Positions 13,840 to 20,157 of a stretch of 64,000 nucleotides of DNA are shown here, one piece after another. A program made the position numbers and the translations under genes. The notes beneath the pieces were generated by a model. The model had not been told where the DNA came from and made no database searches. It saw only the letters and a list, made by a program, of their open reading frames with translations. Source of the stretch: Adineta vaga (taxonomy: Eukaryota; Animalia; Rotifera); NCBI GenBank assembly GCA_021613535.1, contig CP075496.1, forward strand, positions 7,502,001-7,566,000. Direction: 5' to 3'. How positions within the stretch are numbered: position 1 is the first letter of the stretch; the number at the start of each line of letters is the position of its first letter.

Positions 13840-15209
13840 TTAAGCTTCATCACGAACAGTTAGTTTCTCAGCCATAATACCTTTACCTCTGGATGTAACA
13901 TTAAATTCTACTGATTGACCTTCTTCTAATGATGTTAAACCGTCAGGTAAATTTTTGACGTGAATAAAAACATCAGGTTCACCATTATCTCGTTGTAAAA
14001 ATCCATAACCTTTTTCAGATAACCATCTAGAACAAAACAAAGATCGATTTGTTAGTTCATGAAGATAGACAAGATTTCAGAAAGAAATACTTTCGAACAG
14101 TGCCGGTGCAACGTTTATCGGAATCAACAGTTTCTCGCTCTTCAACTGGTGAATCATCTTCATTTGAAATAGTTACATCACGTGCTTCTTCGCCTTTATC
14201 GGTTTGTTGAATTGTATATTGAACTATTTGACCCTAGATGAACGAAAAATGCATACATTAATTGTTCATATACGACCCAATCAAAACTTACTTCGCTTAA
14301 TGCACGTAAACCATTTCTGAGACTTCGAGCATGACAAAAGAGATCTGGACCACCATTATTTCGACGAATAAAACCAAATCCTCGTTCATCTGTCCATCTT
14401 TTAACAGAACCTATTTCACGTTTTCCATTTCCACTTGTTTGATTTCGTCTCGAAGAAAAAAAATCATCTGTTGTTTTACCAGTTAGTCCTGAACTGTAGT
14501 CAAATGATTTATCAGCTGCTGCAGAATCACGTCCAAACGAATGTAATTTCGATGATGTCGTACCACCAAAACGATATTCTGATGGTGATGATTGATTTCG
14601 TGAATTACCACCAAAACCAAATCTTGATGAAGTAGAGTTATTGTCGGACGAACCACCGATGAATGATGAACGACTTGTTCCATTGTTAACAATATTAACA
14701 TCCTAATAATAACAAAATATCAAAATCTAATTCAATTGTAGAATCTTTTTTATGTAAAAGAAATGTTTAATACGTAAGGAATTTTAAATTATTGAAATTG
14801 AATATTATTTATTCAATTTTACACAAATGTAACGATTGAACTTACTTTTGCTTCAAGTCCTTTTTCACCTTGTACAGTTGAAAATTCAACTTCTTGTCCT
14901 TCTTCCAATGTTCTGAAACCGGTTGCATTTATACTTTTAAAGCTTTAAAATAAATACATTAGAATAATTCAAATTCAATCGATAATATTCAACATACTGA
15001 ACAAAACAATCAGTTCCATCCTTGTTATTTGATATAAAACCATAACCTTTATCTTTTGAGAATCGTTTAACAATGCCTGTTTCACGATCACTTGAAGTGT
15101 TTTGGGTTGGACTCGATTCCATTGTACTTAATGAACGAAGAAAATGTTGTTGATAATGACGGATTGGACGAACAGATGTGAGAAGACGACCAAATACGTT
15201 CGATAACAT
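13840..15209 (-). CDS. Triple cold-shock-domain RNA-binding protein with mitochondrial-type presequence (~349 aa)
   Basis: Exons 15209-14998, 14942-14846, 14702-14292, 14233-14091, 14026-13840. Three CSDs with RNP1/RNP2: KGYGFI..DCFVH, RGFGFI..DLFCH, KGYGFL..DVFIH. Confidence 0.88.
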
Positions 15210-15297
15210 ATCCTATCTAAAACAATTTCAATTAGAAATAAACTTCAAAGAGAAAAAGAATGAAATTTATTTTTATTTGAAAAAAAGAAACAAGAAA
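15210..15297 (-). promoter_or_regulatory. Intercistronic-like spacer: polyA signals followed by an unpaired 3' splice acceptor
   Basis: AATAAA at 15277-15272 and 15271-15266, U-rich tract, then TTTTAG (15222-15217) 7 nt before the ATG. Confidence 0.55.
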
Positions 15298-18200
15298 TTA
15301 TTTCTTTAGACGTTCATTATTCCAATCATGTATCGACATTAATTTAAAAGATATCTTCATTGTTTCACTTCGGAATGAACAGACTTTGAATTCATCAAGG
15401 AATTTTGTGAATGTATAGTAAAATTGTCGATGTCGACTGAGCGTTTGTTCGTCAATTTGAAAACCAATTGAATAAAATCTTTCAAGATTCTTTTCTCGTA
15501 TTTCAACTTTAGTATCTGTTTGAACAAATAAATGACATTCATCTTCGCAATCGGTTAAAAAATGTGCTAAACGAGATTTCATATAGCCAACCCATTGATT
15601 TAATTCATTGATCGTTTGACCAGATAATGATAATTGAATAATCGATTGAATTGTTTTCTTTGGAAATTGAGTTGGAAGTTGAAGAATTTCTTTAAGATTA
15701 TCTTCACAATTCGTTGTTTTTTCAAGTATTTGATATGCTTGTTGAAAACCTTGAGTAATCATATCACGAGTAGAATTTATTGTTGAGCGTGCACTGTTTT
15801 GAAAAGGTGGTGATGGACATAGTATACGCATTGAACCACGATTATCCACTGTTGATTGATCATGATAATGAAGTTTTGCAGATAAACAAAGTGATTCATG
15901 TAACCAATTGAAATGAGAATAGAATGTAAAGAATTGTTTAACTAAATTAAAGAATTGTTCAATGGAAAGAGTTGATTGATTTTCTGGTAGATATTGATGA
16001 CAAATATATGCACATAGAATTGCCCAAGAATAACCACCTAGATAACCGTAGACTTGTCCATAAAAACCGATATGTTGAGCCCAAGTACGTATATATGTTA
16101 ATAAATATTGAAAGATAAGTGGAGAACGAACATAAACTATAAGACGTTCGATATCATGCACCTAAAAACATGGAGAAAAAAGATATTGAATGAATAATTT
16201 TTTAAATTAGTTATCTTACGCCGTGTATTGGTTCGTGAAAATTGGAAAGTAAATTTGTTTCATTTAATATAGAAGCTTCTTTAATTTGTACAAATATTTC
16301 TACTCGGATTTGATCAGTAAAGAGAATGGAAAGAATCGGATAGAGTGCTTGAATTCTTCGACAATCAATGATTTCTACATTGAAAATATCTTGTATTGTT
16401 TTTTCCAGTAAAATCAATACACAATTTGTTAATTCAGATGGATCATATCGTAATCGAAGAAATTTTTGATCGAGATTAGTTGGATTATTAATAGATCTAT
16501 GTTCACATAAAACAAATACAATATCCAGATCTTCGCCATTTAAACCCTAAAGATGAAGATATTAAGTGTCTTTCTATAACACAAACTTACAAGACGAAAA
16601 CTTCCATATGGAAGAATTAGACATGTATAACAGTGTAATGTATTTGAATTAAACATTTCTTCGAAACAAATTGATAATCGATGTAATTTCTCATGCTTCA
16701 ATTCATAGGATTGTTCGCTTTCATAAAGCTTCATTTGATGAAAAAATCTTTTCAATTCAGAATCAATACCAAACAATTGTTTGAAATTAATCGGTTCAAG
16801 TATTGGACCTAATGGTAATTGATGAGTTACATGGAATGATGATGTATGATTTTGAATTGACTGTTCTATGATAGAAATATATTGCACAGGAAATCGAATT
16901 GAATTGTTTAAAGCTAAAGAAAATGAAGTTAGACATAACTGTAAACTTTGTTATGACTTACATAGTGTTGATTTGACTTGATTTAATCGTTTATTTGTAT
17001 CAAATTGTGCAATTCTTATATGTGGATTGTATATGATTGTGTTGTTTGATAAACATTGTGAGAAGAGTTGTTGAATTTGTTCATATAATTCCTTAGTAGA
17101 TTGTGTTGATGATGAATTTAGTTTTAAGAAAATCGTTCGATCTTCTGTTGATGAATCGATTTCATCGATAACAATTTCAAATGATTTATATTGAGCAAAA
17201 AGTAATCGTAAAGGTAAAAGAATATTGTCTTCATCATCTTCATTATTAATTAAATCAAAAAATGGCGAAAATAACTTAAGATGTAATGGCCATTGATCCA
17301 ATGATAAATCATGTTGTTCACGAAATGTTTCAATAACGGAATCCATTTTTTCCGGAGGTAAAATTGCAAGCATTGATCGTTGATTCATTGATCGTGTTCG
17401 AAAGTTGATTATCAACTGTAATCCGAAATGATCAGATTGATGAATACGTTTATGATTTTGAGAATCGATCGAAATAGTTTCAAGGCCAACCATATTGAGA
17501 TGTTCAATTGAATATGAAAGATTATGCAATGTATGAAGTAAATATCGATCAAGACGAAGACTCTCTTTTGATTTTGATGTTATTTGAGCACAAGAATTAC
17601 GTGTTGGATCAAATGTATAACCCGAATTCTAAAATAAAATTTGTTTGTTTTCAAAAATAAATCGGTAAGAAAATGAAAAGAGAATTTTACCTCGTCAATA
17701 TCATAAATATCTTTCCATAAATCATGTATTTGATATTGATATTTTTGAAGTAGATATTGTTCTTTGGAATGATGATCACCAAAATTCAAATCTCCAATTA
17801 ACATATAATTTTGTGTATTCATTGTTTTAAGAAAATATTCTAATACTTGACAACGTTTTTCTATCGCATCATATGAACAATCACTATGTAAATGAAGATT
17901 AACGAGATCTATTGTTATATTTGAATTTAATCCAAATCTTGCAATGATATATTCTTTCGTATATTTTCGTTTTCCATTCGATACATTGTCCAATAATTGA
18001 AGTGAAGAAATCGTAAATGCTCGTGCTCGAAAACTTTTTGTTAATATCAATTGTCCATAGGCTTGTTTTTGTTTACAATCAAGAATATTTCCCATAATAA
18101 TAATATAATAATTATTTTCTTGTAACCATAGTTCATTCATAAGAAGATTAAGAAAATCTAAAGTTACTTCTTGTAAACAAATAATATCTGGTAAGAATGA

Positions 18201-19256
18201 TTTTAATGTTTTCAATATTTCTGGATATCGAAGATTTGTATAGATTGATTCGGAATGAAAATAATTGAAAAGAATATTCCAGGTTATAATTCGACACCGC
18301 TTTGGAATACACATATTATCTGGAGATGGAATGCTAAAATTATCAGATGCTATGTTCACATGTACACATAAATTCCATTGATGAGTTGATCGATCATATT
18401 CATACATTCCTTCGATTAGATTCACAGGTTCTTGCTCAACATCGACTAAAAGTGCTATTTATAAATGTTTATCAATATTCGACATTTACTTGTTCTAAAT
18501 GCAAACTTCTCTCACTTACTCGGAGTATTTTCAAGATGAATTTCACTTCCAGTTAAAATATCCACTTTCTTTATTCGATCCCAAACGACTTGTCCATCGA
18601 TTTTATAATACCGAATTCGATGCATTGGAATACCATACTAATCAATCGAAATATTGTACATAAAGAAACTGTTTTTTTTTCTATATTCTTACTTCATCTT
18701 GATGAACTTTTTTAAATTCATTGAATATTATTTCATGAATACCAGTGAAACGATCTTCGTAACCAATGATGACTTTCGAACGATCGATTGTTGGATCATG
18801 TGCTAGGCGATTAAATATTAAATCAGCTCCACGAAATTTTTCTATGGGAGTTGAGGCATTTTCTCTTGATATTGCTATCGATGAAAATGATTGTGATTCA
18901 GAAGATTTTGATTTTGAGAGTTGTGAAAGATATTCCTGCATGGATTGAACAATTGAATAGAGAGAAGTATTAGAATTGGATTGTTGAATAAGTTTTTGAA
19001 AATAATCTTGAGTTTGGGTCCATTGTTCATTTGTCAATGAATCTTTATTTATTATTTTTAAATCATGAATATCATTGATTGTAAGAGATGATTCTGTCGA
19101 TAAAGTTAATGAATCAATAAAACATGTGATATAAATATTATATTCGAGTTTGAGACAAATTTGATCGAAATCTCCAGCTGATCGAATCTGAAGATCGTCA
19201 TCGAATTGAAGTATCGAACGAAGTAAAGTGAATTGGTCGGTACCAGTTTTTGACAT
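15298..19256 (-). CDS. Multidomain RNA end-processing protein: RWD-like + MJ1316/DUF504 + EEP phosphoesterase + 2H phosphoesterase + poly(A) polymerase-like nucleotidyltransferase (~1205 aa)
   Basis: 7 exons (19256-18693, 18637-18520, 18445-17691, 17628-16962, 16913-16591, 16546-16220, 16161-15298) give one 1206-codon frame. Motifs: IIGYEDRFTG..IPMHRIRYYK..VWDR; TWNIL, LQEV, GDLN, LDR, SDH; WPLHL / YNPHI; YGSFRLG..DLD; TWAQHIGFYGQVYGYLGGYSWAIL. Confidence 0.88.
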
Positions 19257-20157
19257 TATAGAAATTGATGAATTCTATCCAATAACGTTGGAATAATTGA
19301 TATGCATACGAATGACTAAAAAATTCGTCTTTCATTTGTTAGTTTTATTTCAAAAAAATGAACCGTAATAAATTGTATTTATGAGAGAAAGTACTTTCAA
19401 ATATATAGCATAGCAGTAACAAGAAACCAATCTCTATAAAAACTCTCTAGTGGATGATTCATAGAGGATGCTTTAACTAGAATTGAAACGAAATACTATC
19501 ACTCTTAGAAAGCAAAAAAATGAAGCACATTTCCTTGAATTTTTATTTGAAAAGAAAAAAACAACGAGAAAACATTTTTTTAAATATTTTTATTTTCATT
19601 CACGAGAGATGTCGCTCGATGATGATTGATTATTGCAAATTCATATACAATTAGATATTATAATATACTATGTTGAAGTTTCGAAGTCTTTCGTCTAGAA
19701 TTTGATATTTCAAATAAATTTTAATGATTTCCTTCAGCACACCGGTGTTCTTTTACTCCCATGGATAAGATGTTATGTTCAAGAATTTTTCGTTAGTTCA
19801 TCTATTGATTATAAGAAGACATCCATTACAAGGGCAGTGAGACTGTTTCATTTCTTTTTATATCGAAGCGACTTATTGTAATTCTTTTTTAATTAAATTC
19901 TATACGCATGAAAGACGTGATGTTACTTCAAGTTTTGATGTGGTGTTTTTAATAAAATTTATTTCTATTAAACTACATATGAGTACACAATTAACATCTA
20001 TCTCAATATACTAAAATAAAAATTCTTTGACTTTTTTCTCTATTTTTTGTATGAAAAATATATAAGCTGCTGGCATAAGGCTGCGGAAGACGCTATTTAC
20101 AGCTATGCTAGACGTAGATAGATAAATAAATAAATATATATATATATATGATTGGTT

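What the first reader, a model, noticed from the sequence alone, without database searches (positions are those of the whole stretch)
15298..19256. Five-domain RNA end-healing/tailing enzyme (RWD-MJ1316-EEP-2H-PAP) in an animal-like genome
Seen: seven exons splice into one ~1205-aa frame that the ORF track shows as five or more separate ORFs. The domains are a RWD-like N-terminus (SLYSIVQSMQEYL), MJ1316/DUF504, an EEP domain with all catalytic positions intact (N, E, H, GDxN, D, SDH), a 2H domain and a poly(A)-polymerase NTase plus central domain. Known: MJ1316 is proposed to recognise 2',3'-cyclic-phosphate RNA ends. Vertebrate LENG9 pairs it with 2H only, whereas fusions with EEP and PAP are typical of fungi, protists and some bacteria. 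Inference: a single polypeptide that binds broken RNA ends, removes the terminal phosphate and adds nucleotides. It may have been acquired horizontally and then gained introns, and it could matter for desiccation, radiation or ribotoxin damage.
Basis: partly seen in the sequence, partly recalled or inferred. Interest (0 to 1): 0.88.

Follow-up and report, generated by a model that had tools for sequence, protein, structure and literature searches.

The report
Rotifer RNA-end healing and tailing enzyme
A real, seven-exon gene of the bdelloid rotifer Adineta vaga encodes one five-part protein that is predicted to strip the phosphate from broken RNA ends and add a short tail; it belongs to a widespread but untested microbial family that rotifers likely gained before their main split, and one of its three predicted enzyme parts likely no longer works.

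Summary
Seven minus-strand exons (19256-15298) give 1208 aa, identical to A. vaga I4U23_019387. All six introns are skipped in three RNA-type runs of one study and retained in a DNA-type run; one contig crosses all six junctions. Domains: RWD fold, MJ1316, EEP (8 of 8 catalytic positions), 2H, canonical-type poly(A) polymerase (D818, D820, E895).

Three corrections. (1) The 2H motifs are off-consensus (H-L-K, H-I-R) and decay across this paralog group (1 of 12 rows intact, against 21 of 28 in the sister group). (2) The gene is not a bdelloid import from bacteria: the monogonont Brachionus has it, rotifer copies form one clade, and the nearest outside relative is an unnamed eukaryote-like protein. 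(3) No tie to desiccation or ribotoxins was shown.

The four-domain core is widespread (bacteria, fungi, amoebae, euglenids, Capsaspora), and this scan found it before in fungi, bacteria and giant viruses. New here: an RWD-headed, rotifer-wide animal branch with a duplicate shedding its 2H. Likely mechanism: bind a broken 3' end, dephosphorylate, tail. Activity is untested. Verdict: new variant of a known kind.

The parts
18693..19256 (-). Exon 1 (aa 1-188): start codon, RWD-fold domain, first part of MJ1316
18903..19238 (-). RWD-fold domain (about aa 7-118), lacking the YPxxxP motif seen in the Brachionus-side relatives
   Evidence: AlphaFold2 mean pLDDT 82; best matches are RWD domains, Foldseek E 0.027, VIA Z 7.6, rmsd 3.8, 105 aligned; alignment
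18548..18848 (-). MJ1316 domain (aa 137-218), split by intron 1; motifs GYEDRF, PMHRI, VWDR
   Evidence: PF04457 E 9.7e-16
18520..18637 (-). Exon 2 (118 nt)
17691..18454 (-). Exon 3 (most of EEP)
17401..18305 (-). EEP domain (aa 278-558), split by intron 3; N287, E323, H415, D449, N451, D509, D548, H549 all match the family consensus
   Evidence: PF03372 E 1.6e-6; closest solved proteins TDP2
16962..17628 (-). Exon 4 (end of EEP, most of 2H)
16801..17379 (-). 2H phosphoesterase-fold domain (aa 566-742) with off-consensus motifs H598-L-K600 (17283-17275) and H685-I-R687 (17022-17014)
   Evidence: PF13563 E 2.4e-14
16591..16913 (-). Exon 5 (end of 2H, start of nucleotidyltransferase with the GS motif)
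16220..16546 (-). Exon 6: nucleotidyltransferase palm with D818, D820 and E895 (E895 aligns to D167 of bovine poly(A) polymerase)
15298..16161 (-). Exon 7: poly(A) polymerase central domain and C-terminal RNA-binding-like domain, stop codon
   Evidence: PF04928 E 1.7e-19; aligns to human PAP gamma to aa 1124
18638..18692 (-). Intron 1 (55 nt)
   Evidence: same position in other bdelloid loci
18455..18519 (-). Intron 2 (65 nt)
17629..17690 (-). Intron 3 (62 nt)
16914..16961 (-). Intron 4 (48 nt, in frame but holds a stop)
16547..16590 (-). Intron 5 (44 nt)
16162..16219 (-). Intron 6 (58 nt)

Best explanation
The gene is a spliced, conserved rotifer member of the MJ1316-EEP-2H-PAP family, and its protein likely binds a broken RNA 3' end through MJ1316, likely removes the terminal phosphate with its EEP domain, and would then add a short untemplated tail with its poly(A)-polymerase module. 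Shown: one transcript, the domains, intact EEP positions, an acidic triad D818/D820/E895, off-consensus 2H motifs. Inferred: in the family the 2H opens the 2',3'-cyclic phosphate and the EEP removes what is left; in this copy the 2H is probably dead, so the EEP would do the job alone, as ANGEL2 does, or the sister paralog with an intact 2H would supply the first step. The tail most likely hands the fragment to decay (by analogy with TRAMP, recalled); its nucleotide need not be A. The RWD head, added in the rotifer lineage, may dock the enzyme on ribosome or ubiquitin quality-control machinery (inference from the fold only). Origin: present before bdelloids and monogononts split, most likely gained from a microbial eukaryote (about 0.6), else inherited and lost in other animals (about 0.3).
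For: Splicing and single transcript. EEP: 8 of 8 positions equal the consensus, which is nearly invariant in 144 representatives. Polymerase: closest solved proteins are canonical poly(A) polymerases (E 1.6e-15; 5e-46 for the profile); two Asp conserved, third acid E in 15 of 16 bdelloid rows. Purifying selection: 15 synonymous and 17 non-synonymous among 32 coding differences, pN/pS 0.32, p 0.0015; MJ1316 and EEP are the most conserved parts. Context: in 3 of 3 actinobacterial loci the homologue follows an RNA ligase-kinase gene. MJ1316 is described as recognising 2'-3' cyclic ends and fusing with RNA-repair domains (PMC6514570, passages). Precedent for the two-step logic: 3' phosphates block polyadenylation until the EEP protein ANGEL2 removes them (PMC9525292, abstract and passages). 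Rotifer clade: 98/97, 96, 96, 99/96.
Against: No activity has been measured for this protein, and my searches found no paper testing any family member. The EEP is closer to TDP2 (E 1e-14) than to nocturnin (1e-6) or ANGEL2 (1e-4). The third acid is Glu, not Asp, and positions matching bovine N202, N239 and T317 are H920, Q957 and A1045 (their role in ATP choice is recalled). One contig of run X3 reads His at the catalytic N451. A syntenic orthologue (L019) lacks MJ1316 and has a decayed EEP and 2H yet keeps the polymerase, so the upstream modules are not always needed. With long branches kept the rotifer clade has only 47/98, the PAP-only tree leaves it unresolved, and letter make-up is uneven in all trees.
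Confidence: 0.55

Rival explanations
1. The EEP works like TDP2: it cuts a protein or other adduct off a nucleic-acid end (5' or 3') and does not act as a 3'-phosphatase; tailing is a separate step.
For: TDP2 fills 12 of the first 12 EEP rows by sequence and leads the EEP matches by fold.
Against: MJ1316 and a 3'-end polymerase lie in the same chain; bacterial neighbours are RNA ligase-kinases; identity to TDP2 is only about 20%, so nearest neighbour says little on substrate.
Confidence: 0.15
2. This paralog is turning into a stand-alone tailing enzyme; the end-reading and end-cleaning parts are passengers being shed.
For: 2H intact in 1 of 12 group-A rows, with deletions of 39-64 aa in three; SDH changed to SNH in L025 and L029; L019 keeps the polymerase motifs but has lost MJ1316.
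Against: In A. vaga itself MJ1316 and EEP are intact and better conserved against Rotaria orthologues (78% and 72%) than the polymerase parts (64-70%).
Confidence: 0.15
3. The polymerase module is inactive or only binds RNA, and the protein is a 3'-end phosphatase that prepares ends for a separate ligase.
For: Bdelloid PAP sits on a very long stem (1.7 changes per column), has Glu at the third acid and misses the PAP_NTPase Pfam. Bdelloids carry RNA ligases of foreign origin (PMC11258130, PMC10809525, passages).
Against: GS motif, D818, D820, R946 and Y955 are kept; the Glu is fixed in 15 of 16 bdelloid rows; the module is the part kept in the most reduced orthologue.
Confidence: 0.1
4. Origin rival: the gene was inherited from the unicellular ancestors of animals and lost in other animal lines, not transferred.
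For: Capsaspora owczarzaki has MJ1316-EEP-2H-PAP in the same order (P0097); amoebae, euglenids and fungi have the family; GC3, intron size and neighbours are host-like.
Against: Trees holding rotifers with Capsaspora are rejected (AU p 3.4e-5; p 0.02 if P0040 is allowed in, simple model, groups named after seeing trees). Rotifers are the only animals among named hits, though most hits are unnamed.
Confidence: 0.3

Closest known systems
MJ1316-EEP-2H-PAP fusion proteins of bacteria, fungi and protists (database names 'poly(A) polymerase', 'polynucleotide adenylyltransferase', 'RNA 2',3'-cyclic phosphodiesterase'); MJ1316 fusions reviewed by Burroughs and Aravind 2016 (paper not held; known here only through passages in PMC6514570 and PMC11258130, and recall)
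   Same: Same four domains in the same order as 106 of 145 new representatives; same EEP and polymerase motifs.
   Different: Extra RWD head; six introns; off-consensus 2H; Glu as third acid; no ligase-kinase gene beside it.
Brachionus plicatilis RNA21173.1 (P0042) and unnamed relatives P0041, P0043, P0044, P0071, P0073, P0074
   Same: All five domains, RWD included; sister clade in five trees.
   Different: Only about 26% identical to the bdelloid proteins; keep both 2H motifs, Asp as third acid and the YPxxxP motif.
Bdelloid sister paralog (group B; A. vaga I4U23_001795, P0029)
   Same: Same architecture in full-length members and shared intron positions.
   Different: 2H motifs intact in 21 of 28 rows; the A. 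vaga model ends at 931 aa, before the central domain.
ANGEL2 plus MTPAP (PMC9525292)
   Same: An EEP enzyme removes a 3' phosphate so that a polymerase can tail: the logic proposed here.
   Different: Two separate mitochondrial proteins; CCR4-branch EEP; the rotifer EEP is nearer TDP2 and its polymerase nearer canonical PAP.
LENG9 and LENG9-like multi-domain proteins (L001)
   Same: MJ1316 with a 2H; L001 also has an RWD start and a C-terminal GS..DID motif.
   Different: AKAP7-type 2H, CCCH finger, kinase and HAD phosphatase in place of EEP; its MJ1316 does not group with the rotifer one (weak tree). Vertebrate LENG9 architecture is recalled, not fetched.
Canonical poly(A) polymerase (PAPOLA, Pap1)
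   Same: Three-part polymerase module, GS and DxD motifs.
   Different: Not nested among five canonical-like PAPs in the tree; several nucleotide-pocket positions differ.

Membership tests
MJ1316-EEP-2H-PAP fusion family | MJ1316, EEP, 2H and PAP domains in one chain | tested here: met
   Pfam above cut-off for all four; one RNA contig across all junctions
MJ1316-EEP-2H-PAP fusion family | Common descent with the other members across domains | tested here: met
   Profile search and trees
MJ1316-EEP-2H-PAP fusion family | EEP catalytic set N, E, H, D-x-N, D, D-H | tested here: met
   8 of 8
Active 2H phosphoesterases | Two H-x-T/S motifs (H-x-N/T and H-x-T/S in this family) | tested here: not met
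   H-L-K and H-I-R; K in 0 of 135 and R in 0 of 135 representatives with a residue there. Both histidines remain, so activity is unlikely, not excluded
Canonical poly(A) polymerase | GS motif, DxD and third Asp | tested here: inconclusive
   GS and DxD met; third acid is Glu
Canonical poly(A) polymerase | Orthology with PAPOLA/Pap1 | tested here: not met
   Outside the canonical-like group (five unnamed PAPs, labelled canonical by me from sequence)
Canonical poly(A) polymerase | ATP-specific, processive tailing | not testable with these tools
   Needs an assay; pocket residues differ
RWD domain | alpha-beta-beta-beta-beta-alpha-alpha fold matching solved RWDs | tested here: met
   best Z 7.6 is under the level the tool calls clear, but RWD/UBC folds fill the top rows and relative P0074 passes the Pfam RWD cut-off
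RWD domain | YPxxxP motif (recalled as typical) | tested here: not met
   Absent in bdelloids, present in P0041-P0044; profile comparison of the two N-termini not significant (E 0.14; 3 of 20 shuffles as good)
LENG9 | CCCH finger and AKAP7-type 2H, no EEP (recalled; seen in L001) | tested here: not met
   No CCCH or AKAP7_NLS hit in P0001, both in L001
ANGEL2-type 2',3'-cyclic phosphatase | Conversion of RNA>p to RNA-OH | not testable with these tools
   Only distant likeness (E 1e-4; Foldseek 3e-5)
Bdelloid-specific horizontally acquired gene of bacterial origin | Nested among bacteria, absent from monogononts | tested here: not met
   Brachionus homologue; AU p 7.6e-5 against bdelloids with bacteria

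The most novel reading that the evidence does not exclude
A rotifer ancestor took a one-chain RNA end-repair enzyme from a microbial eukaryote, bolted on an RWD head that aims it at stalled or cut ribosomes, and kept it in both main rotifer lines; bdelloids then split the work between a full copy and a 2H-dead copy with a changed nucleotide pocket. That would be a dedicated heal-and-tail defence against RNA-cutting toxins in an animal.
Probability: 0.15. Interest if true: 0.75.

Novelty: new variant of a known kind. Interest (0 to 1): 0.42.

Why it matters
A 2026 review says direct evidence for dedicated RNA repair in desiccation-tolerant animals is limited (PMC13407396, passages), and a 2024 study proposes that bdelloids use foreign RNA-repair genes against fungal ribotoxins (PMC11258130, passages). 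This gene is a concrete, transcribed candidate in a laboratory species. It also offers a natural pair (2H-dead copy and 2H-intact paralog) for the first biochemical test of a family with hundreds of members. It matters less as a discovery of kind: the core fusion is already catalogued across bacteria, fungi and protists, and the protein is already a database gene model.

Tried and rejected
No whole genome is held for this window, so copy number, a separate LENG9 and the paralog's 3' end were not checked. The Burroughs and Aravind 2016 review is not held. Paper searches: MJ1316 gives 2 papers, neither on this protein by title or passage (one read in passages, one seen as a listing); LENG9/MJ1316 gives 74, of which 30 listed, none on enzyme function by title; DUF504/PF04457 gives 32, of which 20 listed, almost all a drug name; searches found nothing useful, and the term 'poly A polymerase' scored no occurrence, so searches are weak. 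PAP pocket residue roles therefore rest on recall. Expression under stress: the one supplement held for PMC10809525 has no hit; in PMC11258130 the gene could not be mapped to an AVAG id (Supplementary Data 1 too large, two zips cut, one scanned PDF unread). Four induced 'polynucleotide adenylyltransferase' genes there have orthogroups absent from Didymodactylos, unlike this family, so they are probably other genes. No listed run is on record as RNA; the RNA label is the tool's guess, backed by the splice joints. Viral contig scans and phages found nothing; the genome scan found only L001; these pattern scans miss distant members. The full-length fold was of P0009, not of this protein, and was poor (pLDDT 56); it was used only for domain matches. 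The second Atlas call gave no usable hit. NCBIfam has no model above cut-off. Rejected: gene-model artefact; separate genes; bacterial contamination (introns, synteny); fusion with the downstream cold-shock gene seen in the A. ricciae model P0004 (RNA contigs of the two genes are separate here).
Full report
1. Observation. The region is 28-31% GC with short introns. Joining seven minus-strand exons at GT-AG sites gives 3627 nt and 1208 aa with a single stop. The protein is identical, letter for letter, to P0001, named Adineta vaga I4U23_019387. Contigs of three runs guessed to be RNA (X1-X3, one study) skip all six introns at the predicted places; the DNA-type run X10 has one piece covering 15045-19700 with none of these joints. 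One 3257-nt contig of X2 runs from exon 1 (18919) to exon 7 (15331), with a 118-nt gap in the listed pieces equal to exon 2. The first 110 codons lie on other contigs but in the same open exon. The gene is real and spliced as one unit.

2. Anatomy. Pfam gives MJ1316 (145-209), EEP (284-453), 2H (573-721) and PAP central (938-1081), all above cut-off. The N-terminal 130 aa fold with mean pLDDT 82 and match RWD domains best (RNF25, E 0.027; RWDD1 Z 7.6, Knl1 7.5, GCN2 7.3). These scores are modest, and a profile comparison with the Brachionus-side N-termini was not significant, but relatives carry Pfam RWD, one above cut-off. The EEP has N287, E323, H415, D449, N451, D509, D548 and H549, all equal to the consensus of 144 representatives; its closest solved relatives are TDP2, then nocturnin and ANGEL2. 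The polymerase aligns to human, bovine and yeast poly(A) polymerase with GS, D818, D820 and E895 opposite bovine D167. Glu stands there in 15 of 16 bdelloid rows; 5 of 5 Brachionus-side rows have Asp. H920, Q957 and A1045 replace bovine N202, N239 and T317; their role in choosing ATP is recalled, and the N202 position varies widely in the family.

3. The 2H is the weak part. Family members have H-x-N/T/S (134 of 135 with a residue) and H-x-T/S (133 of 135); this protein has H598-L-K600 and H685-I-R687, seen in none. Bdelloids have two paralog groups. In the query's group both motifs are intact in 1 of 12 rows, three rows having deletions; in the other group in 21 of 28 rows that show both motifs (4 more rows were incomplete), and in 1 of 2 Didymodactylos rows. 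Rows include alleles and close species, so they are not independent. Against Rotaria orthologues the 2H is the least conserved part (52%, against 78% MJ1316, 72% EEP, 64-70% polymerase). A syntenic orthologue, L019, has lost MJ1316 and most EEP and 2H motifs while keeping GS, DxD and the third acid.

4. Selection and setting. Of the 40 differences shown (5 more not shown), 32 are coding: 15 synonymous, 17 not, pN/pS 0.32, p 0.0015. One, in a single contig, changes the catalytic N451. Downstream lie a cold-shock-domain gene, a GNAT and a GT8-like gene; the same order is kept in L019 and L025, and introns after aa 188, 482, 812 and 921 recur in other bdelloid loci. GC3 is 0.16 against 0.12-0.20 in neighbours. 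The gene is long settled in the genome.

5. Spread. All 24 hits are named bdelloids. One search adds Brachionus plicatilis (monogonont) with all five domains. The Atlas shows clusters with the same families in Rotifera, Actinomycetota and Ascomycota. A profile search of 1.84 billion representatives finds 1846 proteins at E 1e-30 or better (this count may include plain poly(A) polymerases); of 145 new ones among the best 150, 106 have MJ1316-EEP-2H-PAP in this order and the rest are permuted or partial. Of 20 looked up, named ones are Pelomyxa, Clastostelium, Balamuthia, Ploeotia, Entosiphon and Capsaspora; the other 14 carry no organism. Bacterial copies occur in Calothrix, Embleya and Nonomuraea; in 3 of 3 actinobacterial loci an RNA ligase-kinase gene lies directly upstream, while the Calothrix locus has no annotated ligase (neighbours not scanned). 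Rotifers are the only animals among named hits, but other animal genomes were not searched directly.

6. Origin. Bdelloid and Brachionus-side proteins form one clade: 98/97 (21 of 28 rows, long branches and near-duplicates dropped), 96 (mixture model, quick tree, 19 rows), 96 (FastTree, 164 rows), 99/96 (22 rows); with all 28 rows support is 47/98 and the PAP-only tree does not resolve it. Only P0042 is named a monogonont; the others are placed there by the tree. The sister is the unnamed pair P0040/P0064 (100/99), without RWD; deeper nodes are unresolved. Bdelloids with bacteria is rejected (p 7.6e-5); rotifers with Capsaspora is rejected too (p 3.4e-5, or 0.02 with P0040 included). These tests used a simple model, uneven letter make-up and groups named after the trees were seen. 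Best reading: one gain in a rotifer ancestor from a microbial eukaryote, RWD added then, duplication in bdelloids. Inheritance with losses and hidden paralogy is not excluded.

7. Mechanism. MJ1316 is described as recognising 2'-3' cyclic ends and as fusing with RNA-repair domains (PMC6514570, passages). Polyadenylation needs a 3'-OH, and the EEP protein ANGEL2 clears 3' phosphates to allow it (PMC9525292, abstract and passages). An end reader, an intact EEP and a polymerase in one chain therefore most simply mean bind, dephosphorylate, tail (0.55). With the 2H probably dead, the EEP would act alone or after the paralog. Whether the tail leads to decay or rescue is inference; decay is likelier by analogy with TRAMP (recalled). 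Rivals: TDP2-like unlinking (0.15), a tailing enzyme shedding its front half (0.15), a phosphatase with an idle polymerase (0.10).

8. Stress link. Not shown. Nowell et al. 2024 (PMC11258130; passages and parts of supplements) report RNA-ligase terms enriched under fungal attack and not under desiccation, built a PF13563 tree and proposed defence against ribotoxins; I could not map this gene to their ids. Moris et al. 2024 (PMC10809525; passages) report two foreign RNA ligases and EEP-family genes induced by radiation, again unmapped. Supplements that I could not see may settle this. PMC13407396 (passages) calls evidence for dedicated RNA repair in such animals limited.

9. Verdict. A sound observation of a known, untested family, which this scan has met before in fungi, bacteria and giant viruses. 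I found no paper on the rotifer branch, but the key 2016 review was not readable and may list it. The RWD head, the rotifer-wide spread and the 2H-decaying duplicate make it a new variant.

Noticed in passing
L001:4502-10023 (OZ220010.1, titled Stappiaceae MAG): A contig filed as bacterial holds a eukaryote-looking gene: an RWD start in a separate ORF, then CCCH finger, MJ1316, AKAP7-type 2H, P-loop kinase, tRNA-ligase-type phosphodiesterase, HAD phosphatase and a GS..DID motif. It looks like host contamination, and like a second RWD-headed heal-and-tail protein built from other parts.
   Followed up: partly
L019:3400-6134: Syntenic bdelloid orthologue without MJ1316, with decayed EEP and deleted 2H but intact polymerase motifs: a natural polymerase-only form or a decaying gene.
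   Followed up: partly
L031:4995-7532: An 845-aa compact MJ1316-EEP-2H-PAP gene among intron-free genes for a 2OG-Fe(II) oxygenase and a tyrosine phosphatase; the setting suggests a giant virus.
   Followed up: partly
window:13843-15212: Spliced gene with three cold-shock domains starts about 100 nt after the stop of the gene studied; the A. ricciae model P0004 merges the two, and the pair is syntenic in L019 and L025.
   Followed up: partly
P0041, P0043, P0071, P0073: Brachionus-side proteins of 1259-1342 aa were called whole on ENA contigs, which hints that they lack introns there; not checked on DNA.
   Followed up: no
window:17786: One contig of run X3 reads a change that would turn catalytic N451 into His; allele or assembly error unknown.
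   Followed up: no
P0014 (Rotaria sp. Silwood2): A 568-aa model joins a 5'-nucleotidase domain to the polymerase part of this family; real fusion or merged model unknown.
   Followed up: no
window:20262-21994: Carbonic anhydrase gene on the minus strand upstream; ordinary.
   Followed up: no
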